Below are positions 16,843 to 64,000 of a stretch of DNA of 64,000 nt, in pieces; position 1 is the stretch's first letter, and every line of letters begins with the position of its first letter. The notes beneath the pieces are model-generated. The model was not told the origin of the DNA, did no database searches, and saw nothing but the letters and a program-made list of their open reading frames with translations. A program made the position numbers and the translations under genes. The stretch comes from Emiliania huxleyi CCMP1516 (lineage: Eukaryota). Location of the stretch: positions 190,815-254,814 of the forward strand of contig NW_005201327.1 of NCBI RefSeq assembly GCF_000372725.1. Reading direction: 5' to 3'.

Positions 16843-19800
16843 TCACGGCCGGAAGGTGGGCACCTGGCGGTCCCAGTTCCACGAGGCCTCGACGGCGACG
16901 CGGGGAAGCGCCTCCTGATAGGGGTCGGCGTCGCGCTTGCTCAGCAAATACTGCAGCGCCTCCTCGAGCTCGCGCTGCACCTGGGAGTACAGCGCGGCGC
17001 ACGCGGCCTTGTCGCGTGCGTCGACACCGCCGGTGGCGATGGGCGCGCCGAAGAGAAAGTAGTAGCGGCCCGGCAGCTTGGGCAGCGAGACCGGCGAGAC
17101 GAACCGCTCGCCGGGGCGGCCGACTGGCGCGCGCGCCGCGCCCTCCTTGACGCGGCCGCCGAGGAAGGGCAGCGCAAGCAACTCGTCCGCATCGAGCAGC
17201 ATCTCGAAACCCTCCTCCGCGCCGACGGCGGCGACGGGAACGATGGTGGCGTTGAATCTTGCGGCGACGCGCGCAAAGTCCGCCGACTCCGACGCGTCCG
17301 GCCAGAAGAGCTGGTAGCTCTCGCCCCGTTTCGTCGACTTGAAGGCCTCGCGCACGCCGCCCGGGTAGAGCAAGGTGTGCTCGCCGCGCGAGAGCAGCTT
17401 GAAGAGCGCCTTGCCCGAGACCGGCACCGCGCCGAACGTCTCAAAGTCCACCAGGCCGCCGCCGCCGCCGCCGCCGCCGCCGCCCGTGGCGGTGGCGTTG
17501 GCGCCTGCGGTGGTCCTGCTGCTGGAGAAGGCGACCGGGTGGGCGAGGGCGCGCACAAGGGCGCCGCGCTGCGCGAGGATCTCCTCCACCACGAGAGGGA
17601 GGTCCGAGAAGCCTACGTGCTGAAGACGCCAACCTCAGGGCGGGAGGACGGTCTTGTGCAGCGTCTTCAGAGCACCGCGTGAATACAACGGAGAGGAGTA
17701 CAGTGAATACAGCGGAATGCGGCCGAATACAGCGGAATACGTGTCCTCTCGGGCGCTGGTTGGAATACAAGAACACGTATTCCGCTTCTAGGCCGGGAAG
17801 CCGTACAGCTGGTGGTTGCCGACGAAGAGCACCGGAGGCACGCCCTGGGCGCGCTCCTTGAGCACCGGGGACGCGCCGGACGGCGGCGGCGGCGGCGGCC
17901 GCCGCGGCGGCGGCGCGGCGGCGGCGATGTCGTCCGCCGAGAGCGGGGGCAGGCCGCTGAGGCCGGCGACGCGGCGGCCGCCCGCCTCGGTGGAGAGAAA
18001 GACGGGCGAGACCAGGTTGCGGACGGAGCGGAGGCGCTGCGTGGCGTTGAGGATCTGCTCGGCAGAGGGCGGCGCGAAGTCGGCGACGTAGTCCTTTGGC
18101 TTGCTGCCGAGCGGCGTGCGGCCGGTGAAGCCGACGTCGCGCAAGCTTCGGGCGAGGTCGACCTACGAGGAGGACGGACTCAAGGCTGCGCGCCGCTGGA
18201 GAGGGCAGAACAGGGGAGGCGCCCTCGGGCGAGGTCGACCCTAGCTTCGAGCAGCGGCACGTGCCCCGACTCTGGCAGCGGCGAGGTGCGGCAGTTTGGC
18301 AAGCGGCGCCGCAGCCTCCTCGCTTCGTCGGTGGAGGGGAGGACCCGGTCCTTGGGGGGGGGGGGGGGAAGGGCGCGTCGGAGTCACAGCGAGCCACAGT
18401 GTGAGCAAGCGGAGAGCTCGCGGGCAATCTCGGGCAATCTCGGGCAATCTCGGGCAATCTCGGATAATCTCGGGCAATCTCGGGTCCTCTCGGGTCCTCT
18501 CGGGTCCTCTCGGCTGCTCTCGGCTGCTCTCGGCTGCTCTCGGGTCCTCTCGGGTCCTCTCGGGTCCTCTCGGCTCCTCTCGCGGTCCTCGGACGACGCA
18601 AAGACATGCACCGGAAGCCTGAGCCTCTCCAGCGGCGCCTCCTGCACGTGCGCCGCGGCGTGCAGCAGCAGCGACAAGCGGTGGGCGAGCGCCGGCAGAG
18701 GCAGCGCGTTTGGCAGCGCGCCCATCTCCGGCATCTGCTGGGCGAGCCGGGCGAGCAGAACGGGCAACCGGAGCGGCGGCGGCAGCGCCTACAGATGGGT
18801 TCGGGTACCGCGGGGTAGGGGAGGGTGGGTTCGGGTACCGCGGGGTAGAGGAGGGTGGGTTCGGGTACCGTGGGGTAGGGGAGGGTGGGTTCGGGTACCG
18901 TGGGGTAGGGGAGGGTGTGTCCGGAGCGGCGGCCGCAGCGCCTACTCAGATGCCGACAACAAGAGCTCGCACCCGACGATGCGTTGGCAGCCGCAGCGGT
19001 GCGGCAGCGGCAGCGCCTCGTCTCCTCTCCTCGCGCCGAGCTGAAGAGGGTCTCCAGAGATGGCNNNNNNNNNNNNNNNNNNNNNNNNNNNNNNNNNNNN
19101 NNNNNNNNNNNNNNNNNNNNNNNNNNNNNNNNNNNNNNNNNNNNNNNNNNNNNNNNNNNNNNNNNNNNNNNNNNNNNNNNNNNNNNNNNNNNNNNNNNNN
19201 NNNNNNNNNNNNNNNNNNNNNNNNNNNNNNNNNNNNNNNNNNNNNNNNNNNNNNNNNNNNNNNNNNNNNNNNNNNNNNNNNNNNNNNNNNNNNNNNNNNN
19301 NNNNNNNNNNNNNNNNNNNNNNNNNNNNNNNNNNNNNNNNNNNNNNNNNNNNNNNNNNNNNNNNNNNNNNNNNNNNNNNNNNNNNNNNNNNNNNNNNNNN
19401 NNNNNNNNNNNNNNNNNNNNNNNNNNNNNNNNNNNNNNNNNNNNNNNNNNNNNNNNNNNNNNNNNNNNNNNNNNNNNNNNNNNNNNNNNNNNNNNNNNNN
19501 NNNNNNNNNNNNNNNNNNNNNNNNNNNNNNNNNNNNNNNNNNNNNNNNNNNNNNNNNNNNNNNNNNNNNNNNNNNNNNNNNNNNNNNNNNNNNNNNNNNN
19601 NNNNNNNNNNNNNNNNNNNNNNNNNNNNNNNNNNNNNNNNNNNNNNNNNNNNNNNNNNNNNNNNNNNNNNNNNNNNNNNNNNNNNNNNNNNNNNNNNNNN
19701 NNNNNNNNNNNNNNNNNNNNNNNNNNNNNNNNNNNNNNNNNNNNNNNNNNNNNNNNNNNNNNNNNNNNNNNNNNNNNNNNNNNNNNNNNNNNNNNNNNNN

Positions 19801-21492
19801 NNNNNNNNNNNNNNNNNNNNNNNNNNNNNNNNNNNNNNNNNNNNNNNNNNNNNNNNNNNNNNNNNNNNNNNNNNNNNNNNNNNNNNNNNNNNNNNNNNNN
19901 NNNNNNNNNNNNNNNNNNNGGGGGGGAGGGGGGGGAGGGGGGGAGGGGGGGAGGGGGGGGAGCCTAAAGCAGGAGGACAGCTCCGAATCACCAGACGAGG
20001 CGGGCGCCGGACGGGCGGCCCTCCAGAGACCGCCGCGAAGATGGGAGTGGCGAGGGCAAAGTAGGCCGCGTCGGACAGGTTCGGAGGGAGGGCGGCGACG
20101 GCGTCGAGGAGGCGCGGCAGCTGCGCCTGTTTTTTGTTGTTGCAAACTACTCACACCAACTAGTCGGGCGACGGCGTCGAGGAGGCGGCGCAGCTGTGCC
20201 GGCCAGGAGCGACCGATGGAGGTTGCGGGGTTGACGAGGGCGACTCCGGCGAGCCTACGTGCTGAATACGCCGACATGAGGGCGTGAAGACGGTGGTATG
20301 CGGCGTATGCCGAGCAACGCAGGCATACAACGGAGAGGAATGCAGCGGAGTCCGTGTCCTCTCGAGTGCTGGTTGGGAGACATGAGCACGTATTCCGCTT
20401 CTCGTAGACGGTGGATACAGCGGAATACGGCTGAGTACGTGTCCTCTCGAGTGCTGGTTGGGAGACATGAGCACGTATTCCGCTTCTAGGCTGGCGAGCG
20501 AGGAGGGCGGCTTGCCGTCGGCCCCCTGAGGGAGCGGGCAAGAGGGTGGGTTCGGGTACCGAGGGGTATGGGAGGGTGGGTTCGGGTACCCTAAGGGAGC
20601 GGTCAAGAGGGGTCAACCACACGCGCAGAGTCGCCCACGCTGTCCTCTCAATCAGGCGCCGTGCCCCGAGACGCTTGTCCTACCGCTCCCCCCTCTGTTC
20701 GCCGACGCCCATCGCCGTCTCACGCTCTCACTTCCACCGCCGTCTCATCGCCCTTTCTCACGTCCTCACCTCTACCGCCATCCATCGCCGTCTCACGCTC
20801 TCACCTCCACCGCCATCCATCGCCGTCGCACGTTCTCACCTCTAGCACAGGAGTACGATTGGACAGTCAGTCAGTGGCTAGTCGTTCGCACGTCCTAGCA
20901 CGGACGAAGGCACACGCGCACGCGAGGACGCACACGGTGCCAGTGCAGGCGAGGCGGTGTGTGCGAGCTCTCAGGAGATACGCATCTATTGTAGATGCGC
21001 CTGAGCAACGCTGAGCGCGAGGACGCCGCCGAACGACTCACCGAGCAGGTAGATGGGCCGCCCCTCCTCCGCCTCGACCTCGCGGGTGACGGCCTCGCGT
21101 AGCGCCTCGAAGCTGGACCGGTCGTCCGGCGGTACGGCCAGCCAGCGGACGCAGAAGTCTTCTGCGAGCCCGGGAAGCTGCCGGTGGAGCGAGTAGCCCG
21201 ACAGCTCGATGCCGGGAAGGTACAGGAGGAGAGGCTTGGTCGGGTCGTCCTCGGCGGTGTGCCGCACAAACTGCGGGTCGCCGGTGACCGCAAAGTCCGC
21301 CAGCCGCGGCTCGGAGGCCATCTCCCGCCGCATCTGCGCCGTCAGGATGCTATCGCTGGCGAGCTGCAGTACCGGCGCCACGATACGCTGAATCGGCAAC
21401 GCTGCGATGTTTTGCACGCAGGGCGCTGCTGGGCGAGGGCCGAGCCGGCTAGGGGTGGCGAACGCGTGGAGCGCGGTAGTGAAGGCGAGCAT
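16843..21492 (-). CDS. Phytyl ester synthase / ELT-family protein (alpha/beta hydrolase + DGAT-type acyltransferase), multi-exon, interrupted by N gap
   Basis: Transit-like N-terminus, PLLLYLPGIELSG, IYLLGESFGG, VALVNPATS, SGHVPLLE, VLFVGNHQLYG|FSDLP, LLYPGGVREAF, GRYYFLFGAPI. Confidence 0.85.
17612..17792 (-). mobile_element. Introner family A copy 1 (forms GC-AG intron 17613-17801)
   Basis: CCTAGAAGCGGAATACG...CACGTAGG. TSD CTTCCCGG/CTTCTCGG. Splicing restores NHQLYG-FSDLPL. Confidence 0.85.
20254..20490 (-). mobile_element. Introner family A copy 2 (intron 20255-20499; internal duplication)
   Basis: Same termini. TSD CTCGCCAG/CTCGCCGG. Splicing restores KPPSS-LAGVALVNPATS. Confidence 0.85.
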
Positions 21493-21588
21493 TACACACA
21501 CATATATATACACACACATGTGTATTGTTCTCGGACTTTGCGGCCGTACACATGAGTATTGCGACGTCGCTTGATTTCTTCCGGCCTG

Positions 21589-22485: not shown

Positions 22486-25153
22486 ATGCAGCTCTCCATC
22501 TTTGTCGCCACCTGGGGCCGCACGGCGATGATCCGCTCCAGGGGCATCGCCAGCTTTCTCGACGAGCTATCCGCTCGCGGTTTTGCAGGGGTCGAGGCGA
22601 CCGCAGAGGAGCTCGGAGCCTCTCTGAAGGAGCGGGTCGAGTACTGCCGCCTCCTCCAAGCGAGAGGGCTGAGGTTAATATACGCCGCCTACACGAGCTG
22701 GCTCGGCTACGAGGGCGCGCACCCGGGATTCACCACGCCGCCGGAGCACCTGGCGGCGCTGGATGCGGAGCTGGCCAAGGCGGCAGAGCTCGAGGCGGCG
22801 GCGCCTGGGACCCTCGCTCACATCAACATCCACGGCGGCTGCGACTCGTTTGACGAGGCGCAGGCGGACGAGTACTACAGCGGGGCCCTCCCACGGATCG
22901 ACGCCTTCCTCGCGACACACGCCCACCTGTCGACCGGCGCCCGCAGCGGCGTCTCGCACGAGTCGCACCGAGGCCGGCCCCTCTTCCACCCGACGCCGAC
23001 GCGCCGGCTGCTGGCCAAGCACGGGCGCGACCGGCTGAAGCTGACGCTGGATGTGTCCCACTGGCACGTCTCTAGCGAGCGGATCGTCGGGTTTGCGCCT
23101 ACCACCAACAGGCCCGACCCGGAGGCTCTGCCAGTTGTGAGCGTGAGCAGCGTCTCTTCACACCTCTAGCTGTGAACAGGCCCGACCCGGAGGCTCTGCC
23201 AGCTGTGAGCGTGAGCAGCGTCTCTTCACACCTCTAGCTGTGAACAGGCCCGACCCGGAGGCTCTGCCAGCTGTGAGCGTGAGCAGCGTCTCTTCACACC
23301 TCTAGCCGTGAACAGGCCCGACCCCGAGGCGCTCGGCGCGGCGAACGTGGAGTGGGGCGCGGCCGAGGCCGCGCTGGCGGAGGCGGCGAGGAGGGAGGAG
23401 GAGGTTCCTCCCGGTGTGGCGGCAGAGAGGCGCTGGCTGCACGGGGAGGCGTACCTCGCCGTCGAGCACGTCCACGCACGCATCGGCAGCGGGCAAAGCG
23501 CGCAGACGCCCCCGGGCGAAGACGCGGACTGGAACGCGGTGCGGCGGACCGAGATGTAGCCGCGACGTAGCCACAAGAGCAGGCAGAACGGTCTGGGTCA
23601 CGCAGGACAGCCGAGAAGTGCGTCCAGCCGGACTGTCTGCAGCGCGGTGCGCCCAGGCCGAGCAGTCTCTCTTCCCACGTCAGCGCCGTGAACAGGTGCG
23701 CGCGCACGTCGCGATGTGGAGGACGGTCTGGGGCAACCTCTCCGCCTCGGGGGCGAGAGAGGCGATCGTGACGCCCGAGTACGGGCCTGGCTACTTCACG
23801 GGCCAGAGCTGCGTCACCAAGGAGTGGTCCCCCGAGGCGCTGTGGGCGCAGACCCTCGCCGCTTCGGCGCACCTGCGAGAGGAGTTTGCGGCGTGGGAGG
23901 CTGGCCGCCCACCGACCGGCCAGGGGCCCTCGCCCGCCCTCGCGGACCTCCCCGCCCCTCCCCCTCCCCTCCCCGCACGCGTCTGCACCCTCCCCACCAT
24001 CGACGTGTCGCGCTTCGTGGCTGGCGGCGCCGCCGAGCGGGCGAGCCTGGCCGAGGAGTGGAAGGTGTCCGTGACATGTCCGTGACATGTCCGTGACGTG
24101 TCCCGTAGGCGAGCCTGGCCGAGGAGTGGGACGCCGCCTTCTCGGGCGTCGGCTTCTGCCAGCTCGTCGGGTACGAGTCCCTCCTCCCCGCCTCCGCCAT
24201 CGCCGCGCTGCGCGAGGCAGCGACCGTCTTCTTCGAGACCGAGTCGCGCGAGGTGAAGATGCGCTCGCACATCGACGGGCTCCTCGGCTATTTGGCCATC
24301 GGCGAGGAGAATGTCGCCGCCACCGTCGGCGCTGCCAACCGGGTGGCGGATAAGGTCGAGGGCCTCAACTTCTCGGGCTACGGAAGCGAGCTCAACGGCT
24401 CGCGAGGCTGGCGGTCGCGCGACCCGTGCGAGGTGCCTTGGCTCGAGGAGCCCTTCGCGCGCGCGCTGCCCGAACGGTTACGGCAAGCGGCGGCGGAGTA
24501 CTGGAAGGCGGCGACGGCGCTGATGCACGTCCTGCTCGAGCTCTCCGCGCTCGCGCTCGGGCTCGAGGCGAGCCACTTTGGTCCCTACTATGCTGAGCCC
24601 GGCTGCACGCTTCGCCTCGCGTACTACCCTCCCGGCCCGGGCGAGGAGGGGCAGCTGCGGTATGGCGAGCACACCGACTACGAGGGCTTCACCATCCTGC
24701 AGCGGCCCGTGGAGGGGGGCGGCGAGGGCAACGGCGGGCTCGAGGTGCAGCACCCGTCCGCTAGGCTGCTGGCCAGGACGTGTCCACTGACATGTCCACC
24801 GACATGTCCGGGTCCGACAGGTGCAAGACCCGCGCACGGGCTCCTGGGCGGGGGTCCCCTCGCTGCCCGACACGCTGACCATCAACATCGGCGACCTGAT
24901 GGCGCGCTGGACGAACGACCGCTGGCGAGCGACGAGGCACCGCGTGCCGGCGCCTACCGCGGGCAGCGCCGCCGCCGCGTGCGGCCGGTTGAGCTTGGTG
25001 TACTTCACCGGCCCCAACCCGAGTATGCCGGTGCATTGCCTGCCGTCAGCCAAGTGCGACTGCGAGAATCCGAAGTACCCGTCGATCACGCTCGAGGAGA
25101 ATGTGCAGGCCAAGTTGCTCGCCGCACAGCGCGGCGCCGCCGACGGCGCGTGA
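22486..25153 (+). CDS. Fusion of xylose-isomerase/AP-endonuclease-2-like TIM barrel and 2OG-Fe(II) dioxygenase (DIOX_N + 2OG-FeII_Oxy)
   Basis: GFAGVE, SHESHRGR, LTLDVSHW, HVHARIG, TPEYGP, then in the same exon LPTIDVSRF, followed by GFCQL, LRLAYYP, GEHTDY, INIGDLMARWTND, HRV, RLSLVYF. Four inferred introns. Confidence 0.8.
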
Positions 25154-28464: not shown

Positions 28465-29104
28465 TCATACCCCCAAGCGCTCCGGCGCCCACGCCTCGAC
28501 CCTCTTGGGCAGCAGCTGGTTCGACAGGTCCTCTCCGTGGCCTAGGCAGCCGTGGCCGCCATGACCCCAGGTGAAGACGGCGCCGTCGGCGGTGCAAGCG
28601 ATGCAGTGGAATGCTCCAGCCGACACAGCGACGACGCGCTGGCCAGCAAAGGCCTCGACCTTCTTGGGCTGCCACTGATGCGCCGGGTCGCCGTGGCCCA
28701 GCCGGCCCCAGTCTCCATCGCCCCAGCTCCAGACGGCGCCGTCGGCGGTGAGGGCGATGCTGTGGCTGCCTCCAGCCGACACAGCGACGACGCGCCGCCC
28801 GACCAAGGCCTCGATCTTCTTCGGCAGCGGCTGGTCCTGCCGGTCGCCGTGGCCCAACTTGCCAGAGCCTCCACCACCCCAGCTCCAGACGGCGCCATCG
28901 GCAGTGAGCGCGAGGCTGTGGGTCTCTCCAGCCGACGCAACGATCACGCGCCGCCCAGCCAAGGCCTCGATCTTCTTCGGCAGCGGCTGACTCTGGTAGT
29001 CGCCGTGGCCCAACCGGCCAAAGCCTCCCTGGCCCCAGCTCCAAACGGCGCCATCGGCGGTGAGGGCGAGGCTGTGGCCGCTCGCACCCGACACAGCGAC
29101 GACG
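28465..29104 (-). pseudogene. 5'-truncated RCC1-repeat coding fragment (paralogue of 50662-52347)
   Basis: Repeats HSLALTADGAVWSWG..G.LGHGD. Begins abruptly after a copy of the U-box gene linker (GAGCTGGCGGCGGCGCTCGAGGAGAGC). Confidence 0.65.
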
Positions 29105-29213
29105 CCGTGCTCTCCTCGAGCGCCGCCGCCAGCTCCGCCGCCTCCGCCACCGCCAGTGCTGACTCATCCTCAGTCAGGCCGACGGTGGCGGGCGGCGCAA
29201 GCGTTGCGCTCTG

Positions 29214-39117: not shown

Positions 39118-41476
39118 ATGGCGCCCAAGCGGCAGCGCAGCGCAGCACCAGCTGCAGCGCCTGTCCACACCGGCCGTGTCGTACTCGATGTCGGCGGCAC
39201 TCGCTTCGTTTCATCGCGCTCGACGCTCGAGGGTGCCTCCTCCTACTTTCGCTCACTCCTCGTGCGGTGGAGCCCGGTGCGCCAACACAGACGCCGCAAG
39301 CTGCCTGGCGTGCACTCTGAGACCGCTCTGCCATCCCTCCTTATCACCGTGCGGCACGCGAGGATTGCCGTGCCGCCGCTCCACGTCCGCACGCGTCTCT
39401 CCTGCAGGCGACGCCGGACGATCCGATCTTCCTCGACTGCGACGCCGACGCGTTTGGCGTGCTGCTCTCGCACATGCGCGTGCCGTCATGCGTGCTGCTG
39501 CCGCCCGGCGACGTCGGCCTCGCCACCCGCGTGTTGCTGCTCGCTGAGTACCTCGGCCTCGACGGATTTCTCACGGCGATCAAGGCGAGGGCCTACTCGC
39601 ACATGCACAGCAGCTGCAGCACCGCCACCGACGCCGCAGCGGCCACAGCCTTCGACGAGGAGGCGGGAGGCCTGCAGCAGGCCATCGATAAGCGGCTGCT
39701 GCCGGCTCGCTTCTTCGCGCCGGAGCCGCCGCCGCCGCCGCCACCGCCAGAGGCCACCGAGCCGCAGCAGCTCCTCGCCGCGCCGGGCGCTTTTCTTTTT
39801 TTGACGGCGGGCGGCATGTCGTTGTTAGGCGACCGTTCAGACGCTCATCCCGGCGGCAGGCTTCACCGCAATCTTCGCAGACGACGAGATCGACCTCGAC
39901 GACGATCTCCCGCAGGATCTCCCGACACCTCCCCACACCTCCCCATCTCTCGCCATATCTCGCCAGATCTCCCCAGATCTCCCCAGATCTCCGGCCGCAG
40001 GTGCACTCGGTGCACCGCGTGGTCTCGCTCGCTCTGGTGCAGCTGGCCGACGGCAGCCGCGAGGTGGACGCGCTGATCCAGCCAAACAACAACGAGCTTG
40101 AGCCGCGCGGAGGAGAGCGCACGAGGTCGCAGATGGTGCTGGCCTCTGAGCACGCGCGCGACATCCCGTGGGTGCACTGGGTGCTGCGCCCCCACCCTAC
40201 GGCCACAGGACCGAACCCACGCTGGGTTCGAGACCCTGGAGTGTATGGTACTAGGTGCTCAGCCCCACCCTACGGCCACAGGACCGAACCCACGCTGGGT
40301 TCGAGACCCTGGAGTGTATGGTACCAGGTGCTCAGCCCGGCGCGGCTGCCCTCCCTCCTCTCGATTGCGCCCGGTACCGTCCGTGGCCGCTGGGTCACTC
40401 CCTCCCTACGAGCGGGCCGAGCTGTGAACGGCGTCTCTTCACGGCTGCAGCTGTGAACAGGTGAAGCCGGGTCACTCCCTCCCTTCCAGCGGGCCGAGCT
40501 GTGAACGGCGTCTCTTCACGGCTGCAGGTGTGAACAGGTGAAGCCCGCGTTCGAGCAGGCCGACTTGGGCAGGGCGATCGAGATCGCACACGGCGCGGTG
40601 ACGGTGGGCGGCGTGCGGCGGCGCGTGGACTGGGAGGGGGAGGTTCCCGGCGATTTGGCCGGTACCATACACACCGTCACGAGCGAGTGCGGTGTGAACG
40701 GCGTCTCTTCACGGCTGCAGCTGTGAGCAGGCACCATACACACCGTCACGAGCGAGTGCGGTGTGAACGGCGTCTCTTCACGGCTGCAGCTGTGAGCAGG
40801 CACCATACACACCGTCACGAGCGAGTGCGGTGTGAACGGCGTCTCTTCACGGCTGCTGCTGTGAGCAGGCACCATACACACCGTCACGAGCGAGTGCCGC
40901 GGCGACGTGATCGTCCGGCGGGCCGATGACACCTACAGCTGCTTTTGCAACCCGAGCGCCGCGCCCACCGACGCCGCCGAGGCCGACATCGCCTTTGCCG
41001 AGGTGATGGGCCCGACTTGTCGGGACGGAATCTCGCGCAATCTCGGGGTGATCTCGTGCAATCTCGCCAGGTGATGGACCCGACGTCGGAATCTCGCGCA
41101 ATCTCGGGGTGATCTCGTGCAATCTCGCCAGGTGATGGACCCGACGTCGGAATCTCGCGCAATCTCGGGGTGATCTCGTTCAATCTCGCCAGGTGATGGA
41201 CCCGACTTCGGGACGGAATCTCGCGCAATCTCGGGGTGATCTCGTGCAATCTCGCCAGGTGATGGACCCCACGTCGGGCGGCGACTCGCTGCGGGCGCGC
41301 TTTCTCGTGCCGGTGACGGGCGTCGGGCGTCGGGACGGAATCTCGCGCAATCTCGGGGTGATCTCGTGCAATCTCGTTAGGTGACGGGCTCGGGCGTCGG
41401 GACGGAGAAGGAGCTGACGCTGGCCGACGTGCGCAACATCGCGATGGGCGAGCGGCGCGTCTGCGGCGTCACCTAA
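39118..41476 (+). CDS. BTB/POZ (KCTD-type) domain protein, multi-exon
   Basis: VVLDVGGTRFVSSRSTL...YFRSLL, IFLDCDADAFGVLLSHMR, LLAEYLGLDG. Downstream exons inferred across repeat-filled introns to TAA at 41476. Confidence 0.7.
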
Positions 41477-42044
41477 GGCAGAGGTACGTCGACGTATTTC
41501 TTTTTCTAGGCGAGCGGCGTTTCTACGGCTTCACGGGCGTGGCACGAGCGTGACAGCCACTGCCGCCGCGGGCCGCGCACACGCGCGATGCCATTCACCT
41601 TCCCGCCTCCGCGACTTCGTCGTATGTGGACCGGAGGCTTGCCGGTGCATTTGCAGTGGCATTTGCCGAGTGAGCGCGAGCCGCATTAGTGGCCATGGGC
41701 TCAGCAGCCGCGAGCGAGCAGCGCACGAGGTAGCGCTTTTTTATGTATGTAAAGAGGGACGGCTCGATTGGTCATTCTCATTGGACGGAGCGGGTGGACG
41801 CGACCACAAGGGGGGGGACCTCCGCGGGGCTCCGGCAGCCTCCGGGGCGACGCCGACGCGGCTGCTTTTGGGTTGTAAATAAATAAATAAAATGCGAAAC
41901 GGACACCACTACTGTGAGATTCGAGTGAGATGGTGTAAATCTAAAAAGGAACAGGTCCCCGCCCGTGAAGTAAAAACGGCGGTTTGATTGGGATTTTGCA
42001 CATCCGCAGCTGCATCCAATGGCGCTTGGCGGATGGCTGAGCCC

Positions 42045-46072: not shown

Positions 46073-47194
46073 ATGCTCGTCTCGTCCCTGCTCGCCGAGG
46101 CGCTGCTGGCCCGCCCGGTATGGCCCGCGCCGGCTGGCACCCGCACCGCCCGCGCCGGATGCGCGCCGACCGCGCGCCTCTTCTCCGAGGAGTGGATGGG
46201 TCGGCTCGGCACCGCGACTGCCTCCAAGGCGAAGCGCGCAGAGCGGCTGCCGGCGTCGGCACTGGCGCCCGGCTGCGTGCTGGTGGCGGAGCCGGGCTCG
46301 TTCGACCACTACTTTCTCGAGTCGCTCGTCCTCCTCCTCGAGCACGGCCCCGCCGGCAGCCGCGGCGTGCTGCTCAACCACGAGACTCCGTGGCAGGTCA
46401 GCCACGATGGATAGGAGGCGACCGAGACACGACCCGGGCGCGGTTTGGAAAGGCCGCTCAGCGATGGGCAGAGCGGCCACGCGCTGGAGCGACACACGCG
46501 ACACACAGACGCACAGACAAGACCACCTCTTCCAGCAGCGCTGCCAAGAAAGCGTCGCGGACGCAGCGCTCGATTTGCAGAGGTCTCTCTGTCTTCGGCC
46601 CGTCCTGAAACCGTGCTCCTCCTGTGGCAGGTGGACGAGATGGGGCCCGCGGCAGCCCTCGGCCCGTTCGCCGCCAACCCGCTCTTCCTGGGCGGCGACG
46701 CGGGCGCGGACACGATGGTGGTGGTGGTGGTGGTGCAATAAAGGCGCCTCTGCCGACCCAGGAACCTCTGAGGCCTAGGCGCAGACACGATGGTGATGGT
46801 GCATGGCGAGGCGCACCTTCCGGGCGCCCGCGAGGTCGGGCGAGGTGTCCATGTCGGCGGCGTGGCGGCGGCGGTGCGGGCATGGTGGGGGCGGGCCCAC
46901 CCCCTCTCAGGTTGAGTGGTCTTGTGATCTGCTCTCTGCCTGATTCAACCGGCCAGGTGCGCGCGGTGGAGGAGGGCGCGCTGCCCACGTCGCGGTTCAA
47001 GTTCTTCTACAAGAGCGTCGAGTTTCTGCCCGGGGCCCTCGACGCGCAGGTGGCGGACGACCTCTTCTCCCTGGCTGCTCTGTCGCCCGCCTGGTTGTAC
47101 GGCCAGGCAGGGCAGCGGTCGATGTGGGCAGAGGTGTGGCCGGACACAGACACAGACACACACACACAGACACACACACACACACACACACACA

Positions 47195-47262
<68 letters not shown>

Positions 47263-48004
47263 GCTCACCCACGCGCACTGGGCCTTGCACTTTGGATGCC
47301 GTGGGGCGCTCCTGCCTGTCTAGACGTGGAGTCGCGAGGGTCGCCCGGGCCCTAGCCCCACCACCTCGTGTGTGTGGAGAAGCTTCCCTTCCTTCCCTTC
47401 CCTTCCCTTCCCTTAGGTGAGGCAGGCAATCTCCGAGAGCTCGGGGCCGGGCAGCGGCGGCGGCGGAAGCGGGGGGGAGTGGGCAGGGGGCGGGGGCATG
47501 CCCGCCGAACAGGCGCGCTGCTGCTGTTACGTCTTCGGTCCCCCGCGGGAAGCCCCGCGCATAGGACAACAACGTCTGTCCCACACACGCACAGGCGCGC
47601 ACATACGTCATGCTCGGGCACCCCCCACAGTGTAGTGGTGTGAGCACACAAGTACTAGCAGAGTGCGAGCAGGCGCGCGCGCGGGCAAAGCACGACGACG
47701 AGCTCAAGGCGTACGTGGCGACGCTGCAGGCGGAGGCGGCGGCGGAGGAGGCGGCAGCGGCCGCCAAGGCGGCGGCGGAGGCGGCGTTTGCGGCGGAGGC
47801 GGCGCCGCCGAGTGCCGCGGCGGCGGAGGTGGCGGCGGCGGAGGTGGTGCCGGCGGAGGAGGCGACGGCGGCGGCGACGGAGGCGGCGGCAGCGGCGGGG
47901 GAGGGGGAGGCGGGGGAGGGGGAGGCTGCGGCGGCGGCGGCGACGGAGTGGCTTGCGGCGCGTGGAATCGTCGCGCCCCCCGCCAAGCAAACACGCGAGG
48001 GCGG

Positions 48005-48072
<68 letters not shown>

Positions 48073-48327
48073 CACAGGGTTCGAGCGCGTCGCAGCTGGC
48101 GGAGGTGCTTGAGTACCGGCGCTACATGGGGAACGACCAGTGGCGGGTGCGGTGGCGCGGCGACGGGGGCGAGAGCCGTGGGCGGAGGGACGCGTGCCGG
48201 CGGCGTCCTCCTTCTTGAGACTCGCATCGTTCTCCCCGCAGGCGAGAGCTGGGAGCGGTGGGCGGTCCTCGACGGCGAGGCGCTGCGGGAGCGGGCGGCG
48301 GCGCTGAGGGAAGAGCGGCGCGGGTAG
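46073..48327 (+). CDS. Plastid-targeted DUF179/AlgH (UPF0301) family protein with C-terminal chromo-like segment
   Basis: GCVLVAEP...YFLESLVLLLEHG...GVLLNH, LFLGGD, RFKFFYK, EVLEYRRYMGNDQWRVRW...ESWE. About six introns. Confidence 0.75.
47263..47416 (+). mobile_element. (CCTTA)n-tail SINE-like copy 3, forming the 3' part of intron 47134-47416
   Basis: Homologous to 14907-15050 and 15698-15833. The tail CCCTTCCCTTAG ends at the acceptor. Confidence 0.7.
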
Positions 48328-48566: not shown

Positions 48567-49628
48567 TCAGACTCTCGTGTCCTCCTCGTCGCGCCGCCTC
48601 GGCTTGCCGCCAAAGCAGCCGCACGACGCCATCAGGTTGAAGGCCCACGCAACCTTGCACAGCACAAAAGACAGGATGAGGACTGACGGAGGGAGGCCGT
48701 GCTGCAGGCTCCACGCGGCGAGGAACGCGGTCAGGCCGATCAGCGACCAGTAGGTGACTGCGATCCACCGCCGCGCCGGCCCGCTGCAGAGGGTGTTCCC
48801 GCAGTACTTTCGCGGCCCAAAGAAGAAGACCATGGCCTGGATGCCTACGTGTTCAATACGCCAGCCTTAGGGGGGGAAGACGGTACTGTGCAGCGTTCTC
48901 AGAGCACCGTACAGTGAATACGGCGGACTACAGCGGACTACAGCGGAGTACGTGTCCTCTCGAGCGCTGCTTGGGATACAAGAATACGTATTCCGCTTCT
49001 AGGACAGGATGCCCGCCACTGCACCGATGGCGAAGACGACCAGGAAGGCCTCCACGCCGACCAGCGAGAGAAAGACGACGTCGAGGATCGCGCAGAGAGC
49101 GGAGACGCACACGCAGGTCATCATCCCAAACCACGGGTCGACGCCGCAGCAGCGGTCGCGCCTCGGCTCCGCCTCTGCCTCGGCCTTCCGCCCCGGCTGC
49201 CGCTGCTGCGGCTGCGGCGGCGGCTGAAGCGCTCGCGCACTCCCACTCTCCCGCGCTGCGGTGCCGCGACCGCGAGCGGCGCCCAGCTGCTGACTGCTGC
49301 GACCGAGGGCGGCGCTCCTTGCCCGGTCGAGCGCCGCCCGCGAGCCACTCGAGCTCCGGGCGCGCTCGAGCGCGGCGGCGGACCGCGCAGACGGCGCCGA
49401 CGCCATCTCCGTTGTGCGCTGCGACTGCGGTGCTGCCCACGCTGGCAGCTGCGGCTCTGGCGCCGGCTGCGGCTCGCGCGCCGGTGGCGCCGGCTGCGGC
49501 TCTGGCGCCGGCTGCGCCGGCTGCAGCTGCGCCGACGGCGAGCTGAATGGGTTCGCTGCTTGGCGGAGCGACGACCACTCGCTAGCGGCTGCTTCACCGG
49601 TGGCCGCGTTGCTGGTCTTGCGAGGCAT
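48567..49628 (-). CDS. SFT2/Got1-like multi-pass vesicle-transport membrane protein
   Basis: MPRKTSN..., four hydrophobic segments, FFFGPRKY...RRWIAVTYW. Contains a family A introner. Confidence 0.6.
48844..49003 (-). mobile_element. Introner family A copy 3 (intron 48845-49012)
   Basis: Same termini. TSD CATCCTGT/CATCCAGG. Splicing restores AVAG-IQAMVFF. Confidence 0.8.
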
Positions 49629-50391: not shown

Positions 50392-50661
50392 TGTGCCTCT
50401 TGCTCGGGCCTCTTGCTGCTTTTGGCCTAGTAAAAAGTACCCAGCACCAGGGGTGTGAATGGGAGGTGCACACGCGCCTCACGCGCTCACGGTGTCCCTC
50501 ACGCGCACGCGGCACGGCTGCGCTCCACGCACTCGGACCGGACACGGTTCACGGAGCCGCCATGCAGTCGCCGTTCCTCGACCCGCGCGCTCCCCGGGCC
50601 CCCCTCCGCGCGTGCAGACGTCTAGGCACACGCAAATGGCCACGCCGCCTCGCGCGTCCTC

Positions 50662-52347
50662 TCACCGTCCTGGCGCCCACGCCTCGATCTTCTTGGGCAG
50701 CAGCTGGTTCGACAAGTCCTCTCCGTGGCCTAGGCAGCTGTCGTTGCCCTTGCCCCAGGCAAAGACGGCGTCGGCAGTAGTGGCGAGGCTGTGCCATGCT
50801 CCCGCCGACACAGCGACGACTCGCTGGCCAGCTACGGCCTCGATCTTCTTTGGCAGCAGCTGGCACTGCTCGTCGCCGTGGCCCAACCGGCCTTCGCCTC
50901 CACCGCCCCAGCTCCAGACGCCGCCGTCGGCGGTGATGACGAGGCTGTGCACGCCTCCAGCCGAGACAGCAACGGCGCGCTGGCCAGCAAAGGCCTCGAT
51001 CTTCTTGGGCAGCAGCTGGTCCTGCTGGTCGCCGTGGCCCAGCTGGCCACCGTCACCACGGCCCCAGCTCCAGACAGCTCCGTCGGCGGTGAGGGCGAGG
51101 CTGTGCACGCCTCCAGCCGACACAGCGACGACGCGCCGCCCAGCAAAGGCCTCGATCTTCTTTGGCAGCAGCTGGTGCTGCTGGTTGCCGTGGCCCAACC
51201 TGCCTTGGTGTCCCCAGCCCCAGCTCCAGACGGCTCCGTCGGCGGTGAGGGCGAGGTTGTGGTACAGCCCAGCCGACACAGCGACGACGCGCTGGCCAGC
51301 AAAAGCCTCGACCTTCTTGGGCAGCAGCTGGCGCTGCTCGTCGCCGTGGCCCAGCTGGCCACCGTCACCACGGCCCCAGCTCCAGACGGCTCCGTCGGCG
51401 GTGAGGGCGAGGTTGTGGTACAGCCCAGCCGACACAGCGACGACGCGCTGGCCAGCCAACGCCTCGATCTTCTTTGGCTGCCACTCGGTCTGCGCGTCGC
51501 CGTGGCCCAACCGACCAAAGCCTTCACAGCCCCAGCTCCAGAGGGCGCCGTCGGCGGCGAGGGCGAGGCTGTGGGTGTCTCCAGCCGACACGCTCACGGC
51601 GCGCTCGCCGCCCAGCGTCGAAGGGAGGAGGGTCGGCGTGTTGAGCTGCGTCACGCCCTCGCCGTGGCCGAGTAGTCCCGGCGTCCAGCTCTCAGCCTTG
51701 CCGCACGACGAGAGCCGCCCCTCGCCGTCCATGAAGAGGCTGTGAGACTGGCCTGCCGCCGCCCTCACCGGCGGGTTGGACTCGCGCAACAAGGCAGAGT
51801 AGCACAGCCACCGCACGGCGCAGCCCTCGCCCTCTGGCTGCGCCGGCAGCTCGAAGCCGCGCTCTTGCGCCCACAAGCGGATGGCCTCCACCGCAAGCGA
51901 GGCGTGAAAGAGCAGCGAGACGGCCGCGACGCGAGCGATGTCGACGGGGCTATCGCAGCGAGAGAGGACGCGCTCGAGGAGGTCCGTGGGGAGGTCGAGC
52001 AGGCGGGCGGGTGGCGGCGTGTCCGGCGAGGGGGCAGCGGTGGAGGCGGTGGCGAGGCGGCGGGGCAGACATGCGAGGAAAAGAAAAAGCGCGCGCCCCA
52101 GCGTAGAGGGCCTCGTTAGCCCTCTTTTTGGTATATTAAAAAGAAAAGGTCGTTTGGGCCAACGGTGTGGCGAGCCAAAATGGTGATGTCCGAGGCGCTG
52201 CGCTAGGCTCAGAGCGAGTTCGCGCTGCGCTAGGCTCAGACGGCGAGTTCGCGCTGGCCGCTGCGCTAGGCTCACAGACGGAGACGGCGAGCGGGAGTGC
52301 GCTGCGATAGCGAGGGAGGGCGAGACGATCGAGTGGTCCCGTACCAT
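50662..52347 (-). CDS. F-box-like + RCC1-repeat protein (start uncertain)
   Basis: LLDLPTDLLERVL followed by about seven RCC1 repeats. Confidence 0.8.
   Translation of the reverse strand: MVRDHSIVSPSLAIAAHSRSPSPSVSLAQRPARTRRLSLAQRELALSLAQRLGHHHFGSPHRWPKRPFLFNIPKRGLTRPSTLGRALFLFLACLPRRLATASTAAPSPDTPPPARLLDLPTDLLERVLSRCDSPVDIARVAAVSLLFHASLAVEAIRLWAQERGFELPAQPEGEGCAVRWLCYSALLRESNPPVRAAAGQSHSLFMDGEGRLSSCGKAESWTPGLLGHGEGVTQLNTPTLLPSTLGGERAVSVSAGDTHSLALAADGALWSWGCEGFGRLGHGDAQTEWQPKKIEALAGQRVVAVSAGLYHNLALTADGAVWSWGRGDGGQLGHGDEQRQLLPKKVEAFAGQRVVAVSAGLYHNLALTADGAVWSWGWGHQGRLGHGNQQHQLLPKKIEAFAGRRVVAVSAGGVHSLALTADGAVWSWGRGDGGQLGHGDQQDQLLPKKIEAFAGQRAVAVSAGGVHSLVITADGGVWSWGGGGEGRLGHGDEQCQLLPKKIEAVAGQRVVAVSAGAWHSLATTADAVFAWGKGNDSCLGHGEDLSNQLLPKKIEAWAPGR
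52093..52147 (+). mobile_element. Very short 3'-end copy of CRE-like family 2 (stem-loop + A-rich tail)
   Basis: CCAGCGTAGAGGGCCTCGTTAGCCCTCTTTTTGGTATATTAAAAAG matches 54650-54701. Confidence 0.75.
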
Positions 52348-53339: not shown

Positions 53340-53650
53340 GGGCTCCCTTATCTTTGACAAGTGCGCCATCGTTCCAATGATGGCCGCCATGCTCGTCTCG
53401 ATGGTCGAGTCGGTTGGAGACTACTACGCCGCCGCGCAGCTCGCGGGCGCCCCGCCGCCGTCGGGTCCCGTCATCTCGCGCGGCCTCGCCGGCGAGGGGT
53501 GGGGTCTCATTCTCTGCGGCCTCATCGGCACCGGCAACGGCACCACCTCGTACGGCGAGAACATCGGCGCGCTCGGCGTCACCAAGGTTGGCTCGCGCGC
53601 CGTTGTGCAAGCGGGCGCGTGCACGATGATCATCATGGGCTGCTTCCCCA
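53340..53650 (+). pseudogene. Intronless internal fragment of a nucleobase-ascorbate transporter paralogue
   Basis: IFDKCAIVPMMAAMLVSMVESVGDYYA...SYGENIGALGVTKVGSR...CFP, closely similar to 59900-60290 (rc) but lacking intron 60053-60128. Confidence 0.85.
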
Positions 53651-54701
53651 CCGCGACGATTCACCATTCGGCCTGGAGGGAGATGCATGCGGCGGCGGGC
53701 CGCGCAGGGAGGAGGGAGCAGGTGCGGTTTGTCTCGGCGAGCCAGTTCGGCGCGGGCGCGTTTTTGAACGCGATCCCGACCCGCGCGCACTTCCGTCTGC
53801 CCTCGTACGTGCTGCGCTTCGCGCTGCAGCGCCGCTTCGGATTACACCTGTCGATGATGACGGACGTCATGGCGGACGGCATCTACAGCCAGCACGGTCT
53901 GCCCTTTGACGCCCTTGGCGACGTGGCGCAGAACGACGGCGCGGCGGGCCACCAGACGCGGCACAAGGAGGTCCTCCTGGACCTTGTCGAGCTGCTGCGG
54001 GGCAAGCTGGGGCGCGGCGCGGTGGAGCACGAGTTTCACTGCGAGCACAGCACTACGAGGACGGACTTGTACATTTACCAGGGCGTGATTGGGGACCTGC
54101 CCTGCATCGGCGACACGAAGATCTTTGCCGGTGTGCCGTCGGACCCCTCGGGGGTGGGGCGCATGGGGGCGTTTGTCGCTTGCGGCAACACGCTGCCACG
54201 CGCCCGCGAGACGGTTCTGGGCGTGGAGGGCGGGGACAGGGGTGGGAGGGTGGGGATGTGGGACCCGCGGACGGGGACCGGGACGGTCGAGGCTGTCAAG
54301 GGCCAGTACACGGACGCAGAGGGGAAGTGCCGCGTGGAGGCGCTGCTCTTCGAGGAGTTCGGCGCAATGAGCGCGGGGGTGGAGGAGCTGCTGATGCGGG
54401 TGGCTAAGGTGGCGGGCCGGAAGCTCACGTGGTGGCAGTACGACCAGACGTCGTGGTCGGCGCGCGAATGGATGCCGTTTGCGCTGCAGCGACTGTCGGT
54501 GCAGCTCTGGACGGCGCTCGCGGACGAGGCACAGCGCGCCATTGGTGCGGCGTCGCGCGACCGCGAGGGACCGCGGGGGGGGGGGGGGGCTAGCGGGATG
54601 GGGGGTTCTAAGGGGAAGGGAGCGGGGGGCGCCCAGTAGGGCGCCGGCGCCCCAGCGTAGAGGGCCTCGTGTAGCCCTCCTTTTGGTATATTTAAAAGAA
54701 A
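53651..54701 (+). mobile_element. 5'-truncated CRE-like non-LTR retrotransposon (RLE domain + 3' stem-loop), family 2
   Basis: GAFLNAIP...RRFGL...TRHKEV...RTDL...DTK...ALLFEEFG...QRLSVQL, stop 54639, then hairpin and A-rich tail. Confidence 0.75.
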
Positions 54702-57480: not shown

Positions 57481-57499
57481 ACTGTGACTGGGCGGTGTA

Positions 57500-59002: not shown

Positions 59003-59035
<33 letters not shown>

Positions 59036-61327
59036 ACGTCTTCGGTCCCCGCGGTAGGCCCCGCGATCTCGGCACATCTCGGCTGTATCTCGGGCGGCTG
59101 CCCCCACCGTACACCGAAGTGAACTCAGGGTCCGTGTGGCCGCCCTTGCGAGTCGAGTCCCACGCCGTCATGCCTGTGGAGCGGGAGGGGCTGGGGTGGA
59201 GGGGCGGGGGGCGGGTGGTGGGCAACCTTAAGTGAGGCGCCTCCCATCTCTCCTGGTGTACGGGTGTGGCGGCTGTCCCGAAGTCTCAAGAGTGGGGGGG
59301 GATGGGTGGCGGGGGGGAGGTGGGGGGCTAAGAGTGGTAGACTCCCGCGCCTCGCTCCGCGCGCGTGCCCGGGATGAGGTTGTCCAGGAGGACACCCGCG
59401 AGCAGCGAGACGATCATCGTGTTGCTAAAGAAGACCTGGGACACCGAGAGATGTGGCCGAGATGTCGCCGAGTTCTGGCCGAGATGGAGAGCCGAGATGG
59501 AGAGCCGAGATGGAGCCGAGATCAGCCGTGATCAAGCCGATGTGGCCGAGATGTCGCCGCCGAGCTGCCGGGCGGCCGCAGTTGCCGCCTTTGTGTTTTG
59601 GGCGTCCGAGCACGGCTCGCCCCACGGGCCGGTGTTGGCAAAGTAGCCGGCGGGCCCGCCCAGCGCGAGGCCTACAAATAACGAAACTCTGTGCTAGGAG
59701 ACGGGTACGAAGGGGGCTCGGGTCCCCGCCCAGCGAAAGGCCGTTGTAGATGCAGAAGCCGAGGATGAACAGGTTGCGCGACGAGTTGAGGTCGACGTGC
59801 TGGAGCTGCGCGAGGCCGCAGGAGCAGATGAGGCCGAACAGGCACATGTAGAGACCGCCCACGAGCCAGCCAGGCATCGCGGCGAACACGGCGCCAAACT
59901 TGGGGAAGCAGCCCATGAAGATCATCGTGCACGCGCCCGCTTGCACAACGGCGCGCGAGCCAACCTTGGTGACGCCGAGCGCGCCGATGTTCTCGCCGTA
60001 CGAGGTGGTGCCGTTGCCGGTGCCGATGAGGCCGCAGAGAATGAGGCCCCACCTACGCGTGCCACAGCCGCAGCTCTGCGGACAAGCTTCAGAAGACCGG
60101 CCACAGAGGGCACTGCTAGCACACGCGCCCTTCTCCTGCGAGGCCGCGCGAGATGACGGGACCCGACGGCGGCGGGGCGCCCGCGAGCTGCGCGGCGGCG
60201 TAGTAGTCTCCGATCGACTCGACCATCGAGACGAGCATGGCGGCGATCATGGGCAGGATGGCGCACTTGTCGAAGATGGGCGCGCCCCACTGACCCGGGT
60301 ACGGCCACCTGAACCACTTCGAGTCCTCGATGACCTGGCTCGACGTCTTGCAGATCGCGTAGCGCCCGCCGAGGTAATCGTCGTCCATGCCGCCGGCCGC
60401 CTGCGCGATGGCACCGATACCCCACGCCACCATCACGGTCCACAGCACCGGGAAGAGCGCAAAGATCTTGATGCTCGCTCCCCCGATCTTGAGGTTGACG
60501 AAGCCGAGGAGCTGCGAGAAGACTACCATGCAGATAATGACCGCCGCGGCATATCCTTCGCAGCCGGGCACGGGCAACGGACGTTGGAAGTTCCCGTTAA
60601 TGTTTGGGGCAGTATACAGCCCGAGCCCAACCATGCACACGGTCGGGGCGATCGTGAGCGGCGAGATGAAGCGCGTGAGCAGGCCGAGCACGCCCGAGTA
60701 GCCAAGAGCAACCTGGATGAAGCCGCACGTCAGGATGGCGCCTTGGATGCGGCGCATCGTCTGCTCGAACTGCTCCTCCGCGCCGATCTCTCCGGAGGCG
60801 ACCATCGCCCTGACCTGGCCGATGACGGCAAAGGTGGGGCTCAAGAAGGCAAACGAGCCGCCCTGCACGATGGGCAGCCGGTCCCCGATGGTGGTCTGAA
60901 GGAGTGTGTTGCAGCCGGAAACGAAGAAGATGGTGCAGATAACCTCGGCCATCTGCGTCGGCGTGCCGCCCATCTCCGGCACGATGAGGAGGGGGATGAG
61001 GGCCGTGGCGCCGAGCATGGTGAGGTAGTGCTGCGGCGGAGGCGGGGAATGGTGAGGCGGTACCAGAGGAAGGCGGCTTGCGCGGAGCGGCGGGATACCT
61101 GGAATCCGAGGATGACGCCGAGGTAGGCGGGAGGCACGTCACTGACGGTGTACAGCATGCCGCCATTCTTTGCCTGTGAGGAGGAGCAGGAGTCGCCGCG
61201 GCTCGGATCGGCGTCAAGCGGCGGCGGCGGCGGCGGTGAGTATTGAGCATACGGCGGCCGCACTACGCGAGTGGTGCAGCGTGTGTGTGCGCACCTTCTG
61301 TTTGAATGACTTGTCCATGACTTCCAT
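58687..61327 (-). CDS. Nucleobase-ascorbate transporter (NAT/NCS2, SLC23-like), multi-exon
   Basis: GFQ|HYLTMLG, LLQTTIGDRLPIVQGGSFAF, ESIGDYYA, SYGENIGALGVTKVGSR signature, VDLNSSRNLFILG, LDNLIPG. Confidence 0.92.
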
Positions 61328-63072: not shown

Positions 63073-64000
63073 ATGGCCGCCAGCTCCGACAACGCCGGCA
63101 ACGCCAGCGCCGAAGGCCCATCTCTCCGCACAGTCGTCTGCGGCCTCTCCCTGCCGTCGTGCGTCTTCAACTCGTCAAACCCGTTCGCAACATCACTCGA
63201 GGACCTCCAGGCGCTCGACGCCTCCGCCGCCGGCGCCGTCGCCACGCGCACCGCGTGCCCCGGCTTTGTGCACGATGAGGCTACGATGAAGTGGGCCTCG
63301 CCTGACGGCGCAAACACGATCAACTGCCTCGGCTACTCGCCGCTCCCGTTCGAGTACTACACGGGCTGCCTGCCGCAGCTCTCCGGCGCCAAGCCCTGCT
63401 GGCTCTCCATCTCTGGCAGCGCGGAGGAGGTTGGTGCGATGGTGCGCGAGGCTGCAGCGCTGGCACCGTCCCTGCCAGGCGGCCTCGCGGTGGAGATCAA
63501 CCTCTCGTGCCCAAACATCGCCGGCAAGCCTCCCCTCGCGTACGACTTTGACGCGCTGCGAAACTACCTCGGCACCGTCTTTGCTGCCGGGCCGCCGCCG
63601 CCGACCCTCGCGGTCGGCGTCAAGATGATGCCGAGTTCTTATTAGTAGTAGCATCATCATCACCATCTTCTTCTTCTTCTAGGTCGGCGTCAAGACGACG
63701 CCCTATTTCTACGACGCGCAGTACACCGGCGCCGCCGCCGTGCTGAACGGCTGCCCGCACCTGTCCTTTGTCACCGCCATCAACACGGTCGGCAACGGCC
63801 TCTACGTCGACGTCGCCACAGAGGCGCCCCTCCTCGCTCCCAGCTGCTACGGCGGGCTGGGCGGCGCCGCGGTGCACGCCGTCGCCCTCGGCAACTCACA
63901 CCATGAGCTATCAACACCATTAGCTATCATGACTCATAACAGGTGCACGCCATCGCCCTCGGCAACTCACACCATGAGCTATCAACACCATTAGCTATCA
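63073..64000 (+). CDS. Class 1A dihydroorotate dehydrogenase-like flavoprotein (possibly dihydrouracil oxidase clade), 3' end outside window
   Basis: INCLGYSP, LSISG, EINLSCPNIAGKP, intron 63613-63682, GVKTTPY, FVTAINTVGNGL, GGLGG. Confidence 0.85.

What the first reader, a model, noticed from the sequence alone, without database searches (positions are those of the whole stretch)
18148..64000. Pervasive intron architecture: copy of next exon's start + short insert ending in AG (candidate undescribed intron-generating process)
In seven genes the first bases of the intron duplicate the first bases of the following exon, with variable length. Cases: 18163-18239 (15 bp exact), ~18790-18940 (21), 23112-23315 (~15), 24041-24108 (21 exact), 24745-24820 (10/12), 40181-40327 (~11), 40662-40868 (28/29), 41003-41380 (~27, diverged), 46704-46778 (~22), 48169-48241 (8), 59672-59741 (15/17), 63613-63682 (18/20) and 63872 onward (23/24). 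The donor is whatever GT or GC begins the duplicated exon sequence. The 40-60 bp insert supplies the AG. Variable-length duplications do not fit a cut-and-paste transposase but do fit staggered-cut repair or TPRT, like the tiny retro-inserts in this same window. That mechanistic link is inference.
Basis: partly seen in the sequence, partly recalled or inferred. Interest (0 to 1): 0.9.

Follow-up and report, generated by a model that had tools for sequence, protein, structure and literature searches.

The report
Algal introns built from exon copies
In the bloom alga Emiliania huxleyi many short introns begin with a 15-35 letter copy of the next exon's start followed by about 40 letters of filler, some of it copied from other introns, which likely records new introns being made by DNA-break repair and would help explain why most of its introns start with GC.

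Summary
The architecture is real, is removed from mRNA, and extends beyond this window. Eleven of the 13 cited cases pass a shuffled control; two are within chance; three needed their boundaries or comparison corrected. One 39-nt filler recurs in three window introns and in 122 marine metagenome loci. There, 82 of 115 sites carry the exon-start copy (0.95% of shuffled pairs), in units of 59-79 nt. Donors are GC, GT or GA, like the published E. huxleyi spectrum. Fillers come in many classes. Some are copied from neighbouring or distant introns, carrying scraps of the source's own duplication, once inverted (42/42) and once whole. Two paralog pairs show empty sites. Corrections: target sites are G|GY or AG|GY, the AG often comes from the duplication, and only 6 of 16 RNA-supported window introns show it. 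Best reading (0.55, inferred): staggered or template-switch break repair with intron-templated filler creates introns without a transposase. Rivals are reverse-transcriptase capture and renewal of old introns. No enzyme or within-species gain was shown. I found no description in ten literature searches. The scan's index holds single related cases in other genomes, none in this one.

The parts
18163..18239 (-). 77-nt GT-AG intron, 15/15 copy of exon start, unique filler
   Evidence: no RNA laid
18789..19016 (-). compound intron: unit 18942-19016 (17/20, unique filler) then unit 18789-18941 (about 20/21, 30-mer array filler); two events at one site (inferred)
   Evidence: no RNA laid
20127..20199 (-).
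   Evidence: no RNA laid
23112..23315 (+). three tandem 68-nt units, 16/18 copy plus the 39-nt filler family
   Evidence: splice inferred from contig coordinates
24041..24108 (+). 68-nt GC-AG intron, 21/21 copy, 11-mer array filler, in a 2OG-Fe(II) oxygenase gene
   Evidence: (inferred from coordinates)
24745..24820 (+). 76-nt GT-AG intron, spliced; copy 10/12 is at chance level; filler of the same 11-12-mer kind as 24041
40181..40327 (+). two tandem 73-74-nt units; copy 9/11 is at chance level
40394..40537 (+). spliced intron with two units of the 39-nt filler family; no significant copy at the donor
40662..40868 (+). three tandem 69-nt units, 28/29 copy plus the 39-nt filler family
41003..41258 (+). 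four units of 61-68 nt; filler shared with intron 41313 including part of that intron's duplication (local copy, inferred)
41313..41380 (+). 68-nt GT-AG intron, 26-27-nt copy, 10-mer array filler
   Evidence: RNA 4 of 4 runs
41448..41509 (+).
   Evidence: 62-nt RNA skip in 4 of 4 runs
46704..46778 (+). 75-nt GC-AG intron, 21/23 copy
   Evidence: no RNA laid
48169..48241 (+). 73-nt GC-AG intron, 17/21 copy
   Evidence: no RNA laid
59672..59741 (-). 70-nt GC-AG intron, 15/17 copy, in a xanthine/uracil permease gene
   Evidence: 70-nt RNA skip in 1 of 4 runs
63613..63682 (+). 70-nt GT-AG intron, 18/20 copy, in a dihydroorotate dehydrogenase-like gene
   Evidence: RNA 4 of 4 runs
63872..64000 (+). 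at least two tandem 71-nt units; the 24-nt copy stands once in mRNA; exon lies beyond the window

Best explanation
These are spliceosomal introns of about 68 nt made of a 15-36 nt duplication of the exon site plus about 40 nt of filler, likely created new by DNA-break repair that copies filler from other introns. Shown: the duplication, its removal from mRNA, the narrow unit length, the G|GY or AG|GY site, and fillers that match other introns in either orientation. Inferred steps: (1) a staggered break or replication template switch exposes about 25-30 nt of exon; (2) the free end pairs by a few bases with another intron, often a neighbour, about 40 nt before its acceptor; (3) synthesis runs to the AG|G and returns to the start of the target stretch, duplicating it; (4) products whose duplication starts with GC, GT or GA, or contains AG|G, splice precisely and survive; (5) the direct repeats then allow tandem expansion, repeat events at the same site and probably precise loss. 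Each product can serve as the next template, so the pattern would spread without a transposase.
For: 82 of 115 independent metagenome sites carry the copy, against 0.95% of 1365 shuffled pairs and 0 of 109 same-locus upstream controls; units 59-79 nt. Bounded repeats peak at 60-79 nt spacing and 97 of 195 there are intron-shaped. Coding phase is continuous after exact removal in 35 of 47 informative sites, against 6 if retained. Mismatches fall about evenly on codon positions, 44 of 64 non-synonymous, as for an untranslated copy. Local templating: 6 of 31 non-tandem same-contig pairs share 5 or more bases upstream of the filler core, against 0.63% of 11422 cross-contig pairs. L039 holds a 42/42 inverted copy of the intron 24 nt downstream, with AG from the target. 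L054 holds the whole L071 intron including L071's own duplication. Empty sites in paralogs: L096 lacks the L109 unit, L117 lacks an L121 intron. Units of the same size occur where no new intron is made (L121 antisense unit, L075, window 20524).
Against: No enzyme, break or intermediate was identified. No filled and empty alleles of one locus were shown: L033 and L119 (96.5% identical) differ at one site but L119 ends before the structure resolves. Empty paralog sites could be losses. Two trehalose-phosphate synthase paralogs (52% amino-acid identity over 58 residues) share one intron position, each with its own copy, which fits renewal of an old intron. Family fillers alone are no closer to their own contig than to others (mean percentile 0.48, 29 cases). 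Extended target-source similarity holds in only 3 of 8 linked pairs. The 115 sites were chosen by a filler motif, so 71% is not a genome rate; 10 of 16 RNA-supported window introns lack a significant copy. About five of the 82 compare tandem units rather than a true exon. The junction-microhomology count was weak (12 of 41 overlap by at least one base, no null).
Confidence: 0.55

Rival explanations
1. A non-LTR retrotransposon reverse transcriptase nicks the exon, primes on the 3' end of excised intron RNA or pre-mRNA from the same or another gene, copies about 40 nt and leaves a long target-site duplication.
For: Fixed 3' end at AG, variable 5' end and variable duplication match target-primed reverse transcription (established knowledge). 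The inverted inserts seen (L039, L102, L121) begin at or within about 3 nt of the complement of the source acceptor. A TTACC-tailed element sits in intron-like positions with 5-17 nt duplications. Local bias fits nascent RNA.
Against: The 39-nt family has no tail. Fillers include AT-rich and 10-11-mer arrays with no single parent. At L102 and L033 the match runs a few bases into the source's exon, which points to DNA or unspliced template. The candidate retroelement fragment has no Pfam match.
Confidence: 0.2
2. The introns are old and their 5' ends, or the whole intron, are overwritten: spliced RNA or cDNA templates the exon start into the intron, or a new unit is added at an existing acceptor and the old part is lost.
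For: One position shared by two synthase paralogs, each with its own copy. Repeat events with different fillers at one site: window 18789-19016, L102, L020 (2 of 77 examined). Constant length fits replacement.
Against: Empty sites in paralogs. Duplications that straddle the junction or copy mostly the upstream exon end. Inverted and distant fillers. A rough estimate gives about 0.6 shared positions by chance in that region (my calculation, not a call).
Confidence: 0.15
3. The 39-nt filler is a classical MITE-type introner moved by a DNA transposase, with the donor taken from its target-site duplication.
For: Dispersed family; both ends carry a nearly self-complementary 10-mer (consensus); E. 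huxleyi is listed as introner-bearing (PMC9860276 supplement).
Against: Near-perfect duplications span 14-42 nt against 3-8 nt for introners in the passages read. The 5' end varies and carries neighbours' sequence. Unrelated fillers give the same architecture.
Confidence: 0.06
4. Assembly artefact or chance similarity in GC-rich DNA.
For: The draft E. huxleyi assembly is reported to hold repeats, duplications and holes (PMC4028052 passages); two cited cases are at chance level.
Against: RNA skips the units; an intron-retaining contig spans 63871-63959; separate metagenome contigs repeat the pattern and near-identical pairs share it.
Confidence: 0.02

Closest known systems
[quoted passage not shown]
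   Same: Direct repeat of adjacent exon bases at the opposite end of a new intron, with an inserted segment.
   Different: Daphnia repeats are 4-12 bp and filler source is mostly unknown; here 15-36 nt, filler traceable to other introns, and unit length is narrow.
Introners that take the 5' splice site from the TSD (Symbiodinium 4 nt, Polarella 4 or 8 nt, Aureococcus-like; 10.1101/2020.10.14.339549 part 1 of 4; 10.1101/2022.06.06.494994 passages)
   Same: Donor recruited from duplicated target, acceptor carried by the insert, GC and GA donors, either orientation.
   Different: Fixed short TSD and one element with defined ends, against long variable duplications, variable 5' ends and many unrelated fillers.
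Tandem genomic duplication of AGGT (review PMC3443670 passages; potato case PMC4974935 abstract)
   Same: Both splice sites can come from a duplicated AG|G site (L109, L039).
   Different: Here only 15-36 nt are duplicated and about 40 nt of foreign filler make up the intron.
Amphioxus 'mirages' (PMC3087553 passages)
   Same: Tandem units spanning an intron-exon boundary, unstable in number, not disturbing splicing.
   Different: Mirages amplify an existing boundary; here one unit is the whole intron and starts at the donor.
E. huxleyi introner families in Gozashti et al. (PMC9860276 supplement rows; PMC12130899 supplement rows)
   Same: Same species; families of about 70 nt; one family of 5 called 'co-opt 5', carry 3'' with '10bp terminal direct repeats'.
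   Different: TSD is scored '?', 'N', 2 or 4 nt; no long duplication is recorded in the rows seen. I could not compare their sequences, so overlap with the 39-nt family is untested.

Membership tests
DNA-transposon (MITE-type) introner | Sequence-similar introns at unrelated sites | tested here: met
   Only for the 3' 39 nt: 122 loci.
DNA-transposon (MITE-type) introner | Short fixed-length target-site duplication | tested here: not met
   14-42 nt in 34 near-perfect cases.
DNA-transposon (MITE-type) introner | Defined ends with terminal inverted repeats | tested here: inconclusive
   8/10 inverted match of a self-complementary 10-mer, but the 5' end is variable.
DNA-transposon (MITE-type) introner | One splice site co-opted from the duplication | tested here: met
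   Donor starts the copy; GC 45, GT 26, GA 6 of 82.
Tandem genomic duplication (AGGT model) | Duplicated segment contains AG|G | tested here: inconclusive
   AG before the donor in 43 of 105; met in a subset only.
Tandem genomic duplication (AGGT model) | Intron consists wholly of duplicated exon sequence | tested here: not met
   24-61 nt of non-exon filler.
Break-repair intron gain | Direct repeat at both junctions around inserted DNA | tested here: met
Break-repair intron gain | Recent gain shown by filled and empty alleles | tested here: inconclusive
   Empty sites only in paralogs; L033/L119 unresolved.
Non-LTR retro-insertion (TPRT) | Variable TSD, fixed 3' end, truncated 5' end | tested here: met
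Non-LTR retro-insertion (TPRT) | 3' poly(A) or simple-repeat tail | tested here: not met
   Family consensus ends at the acceptor AG.
Non-LTR retro-insertion (TPRT) | Partner reverse transcriptase | not testable with these tools
   No whole genome held; candidate fragment has no Pfam match.
Mirage minisatellite | Tandem units spanning intron end and exon start | tested here: met
   For expanded introns only: 7 of 77 loci; window 23112, 40662, 41003, 63872.

The most novel reading that the evidence does not exclude
E. huxleyi has a self-templating intron factory with no mobile element: each intron of the form copy-filler-AG-copy is the repair template for the next, hands on its roughly 68-nt geometry, and has produced a large share of the alga's short introns and its GC-AG majority.
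Probability: 0.35. Interest if true: 0.92.

Novelty: new variant of a known kind. Interest (0 to 1): 0.8.

Why it matters
The source of most newly gained introns is unknown (PMC4202315 passages). Here each intron keeps a dated stamp (divergence of the copy from its exon) and sometimes a traceable parent, so gain, renewal and precise loss could be measured across a genome. It offers a cause for the reported 56-65% GC donors of E. huxleyi, so far attributed to GC content (PMC4028052 passages): donors drawn from G|G[C/T/A] exon sites give GC 45, GT 26, GA 6 of 82. Introner searches that need end-to-end similarity would miss most such introns. It also warns that read aligners and gene predictors can misplace these junctions.

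Tried and rejected
No whole genome is held, so no genome-wide count. The first scan with other-dinucleotide controls was uninformative because protein repeats swamp it (AG 19.4 hits per 1000 sites, CA 23.6). The filler motif found nothing in viral contigs. Folding six window stretches gave z from -1.91 to 0.79, no shared structure. The opposite-strand control on L047 is uninformative because repeats read both ways (12 against 15). Orientation by coding model was ambiguous: sense better in 66 of 81, and most of the other 15 scored poorly both ways; most apparent antisense readings are sense introns read backwards. L068 looked antisense but its coding score favours sense. The mirror control (intron end against upstream exon end) scored at most 5 in 16 window introns. 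In-register target-source similarity was only partly supported (3 of 8, p=0.015, partly circular). Eleven near-duplicate loci were dropped, seven before and ten; one search removed duplicates by exon start. Extending L119 was not possible. An exact motif of a second intron family matched none of 122 loci. PMC2784329 passages do not describe the pattern; PMC13508280 has no 'intron' in its main text; PMC11782384 reports 4-30 bp repeats near splice sites without Emiliania. Not seen: Huff et al. 2016 (not held), the 2013 genome paper and its supplements (not looked up), and files 13-14 of PMC12130899; these may bear on novelty. The 'CRE-like' label for 53641-54636 and the polymerase-theta idea are recalled, not from a call.

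Full report
Setting. The window is eukaryotic, about 65% GC, with two N gaps. A window ORF is 95% identical to a protein named from Emiliania huxleyi CCMP1516, so I infer E. huxleyi or a close Gephyrocapsa; the strain is unknown. No whole genome is held.

Observation. Anchored alignment supports 11 of 13 cases after correction; 24745 and 40181 are at the chance ceiling. 41003-41380 is two introns: 4 of 4 RNA runs skip only 41313-41380. 18790-18940 is the second unit of a compound intron 18789-19016. The 63872 comparison was between tandem units, but RNA carries the 24 nt once. RNA also removes 24745, 41448, 63613 and 59672. Among 16 RNA-supported or RNA-inferred window introns, 6 score 8 or more against 0 of 240 shuffled pairs; only 1 of the 10 not already flagged does. 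The pattern is common, not universal.

Test outside the window. A 39-nt filler recurs in introns 23112, 40394 and 40662. At 115 distinct sites, 82 have a copy of the downstream sequence just upstream of the filler (score 10 or more), against 0.95% of 1365 shuffled pairs and 0 of 109 same-locus controls. Units are 59-79 nt. Near-perfect copies are 14-42 nt, mostly 22-34. Donors are GC 45, GT 26, GA 6 of 82, close to the published 56/40/4% (PMC4028052 passages). Exact removal keeps the coding phase in 35 of 47 informative sites, against 6 if retained. Differences between copy and exon fall about evenly on codon positions.

Beyond one family. In the same loci plus the window, bounded direct repeats peak at 60-79 nt spacing, and 97 of 195 there have AG|G[TCA] geometry; 69 rows at 58-82 nt spacing fell outside the family expression, a few being family sites read backwards. 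Fillers include AT-rich tracts, 10-11-mer arrays and unique sequence. One trehalose-phosphate synthase gene (L047, Pfam PF00982) has 14 scored units in 3.5 kb, with exon frames chaining where checked; two of the 14 look mis-bounded. Sites are proto-splice-like: G at -1 in 94 of 105 and AG in 43 of 105, against 30% and 6%. In 43 of 130 repeats the first possible splice point lies 4 or more bases inside the duplication and 13 have none; some of these are mis-bounded family sites. So the unit is a target duplication plus filler, and the AG may come from either.

Where filler comes from. Six of 31 non-tandem same-contig pairs share at least 5 bases upstream of the filler core, against 0.63% of cross-contig pairs. 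The shared bases are often part of the other intron's own exon copy (L031, L042; window 41003 against 41313). L039 has a 42/42 inverted copy of the next intron, 24 nt away. L054 carries the whole L071 intron at an unrelated site, and L104/L121 and L100/L117 are linked across contigs. For non-family fillers 10 of 52 match their own contig better than all sampled others (about 2 expected), though some are tandem copies; family fillers show no such excess. Three of 8 linked pairs also have similar exon starts, partial support for templates handing on their geometry.

Are they new introns? L096 lacks a 67-nt unit present in its 86% identical paralog L109, and L117 lacks an L121 intron. L033 and L119 differ at one site but L119 ends too soon. 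Against this, synthase paralogs L018 and L047 share one position, each with its own copy, and second events at existing acceptors occur. Gain is likely, not proven.

Mechanism. I favour break repair or replication template switching with intron-templated filler (0.55). It accounts for long variable duplications, mixed fillers, both orientations, local bias and carried-over scraps. Reverse-transcriptase capture of intron RNA (0.2) fits the fixed 3' end and a tailed element with 5-17 nt duplications, but no enzyme was found. Renewal of old introns (0.15) explains some sites. A MITE introner fails on duplication length. The narrow length may reflect selection for a spliceable size, but similar-sized units where no new intron arises hint at a mechanistic part; that rests on few cases.

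Known systems. Break-repair gains in Daphnia have 4-12 bp repeats. Introners have 3-8 nt TSDs in the passages read. Tandem duplication and mirages lack foreign filler. Published surveys list 653 E. huxleyi introner copies in five families with TSD '?' or 'N' and later three families with TSD of 2, 4 or none. Ten literature searches returned no description of this architecture; the library lacks most subscription papers. The scan's index had no note on this genome or sequence and single related cases elsewhere.

Verdict. Real, spliced, widespread in this alga, and a new variant of known intron-gain routes, with the mechanism inferred. Interest 0.8.

Noticed in passing
window 17612-17792, 20257-20490, 48845-49001 (minus strand); L007, L051, L054, L075: A second, roughly 180-nt repeated intron-like family with a GC donor and shared ends, 72-83% alike across loci; a candidate classical introner.
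   Followed up: partly
window about 47134-47416 (+), 15697-15950 (-); L041, L061, L001: Element with a TTACC/CTTCC-type tail that ends in AG at intron-like positions, flanked by 5-17 nt duplications; not RNA-tested.
   Followed up: partly
window 53641-54636 and 36762-37215: Open frames resembling C-terminal ends of CRE-like retroelements (label recalled); the first is 95% identical to an E. huxleyi hypothetical protein, no Pfam match.
   Followed up: partly
window 53341-53650: Fragment of a permease paralog that lacks the 60053-60128 intron of the intact gene and abuts the retroelement-like frame.
   Followed up: no
window 47509-47600: About 70-nt insert between 10-nt direct repeats, related to 59004-59066.
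   Followed up: partly
window 20524-20611: 23-nt repeat at 65-nt spacing with the same 30-mer filler as intron 18789 and no splice placement.
   Followed up: partly
L096 and L109: The shared intron is 65 of 68 identical while the aligned region averages 86%, hinting at gene conversion.
   Followed up: no
L040 780-1071 (-): Two-unit intron whose second unit is a copy of the L033/L119 intron.
   Followed up: partly
window 28480-29106 and 50650-51735: Two RCC1-like repeat genes (label recalled) with 156-nt units that mimic the pattern in naive scans.
   Followed up: no
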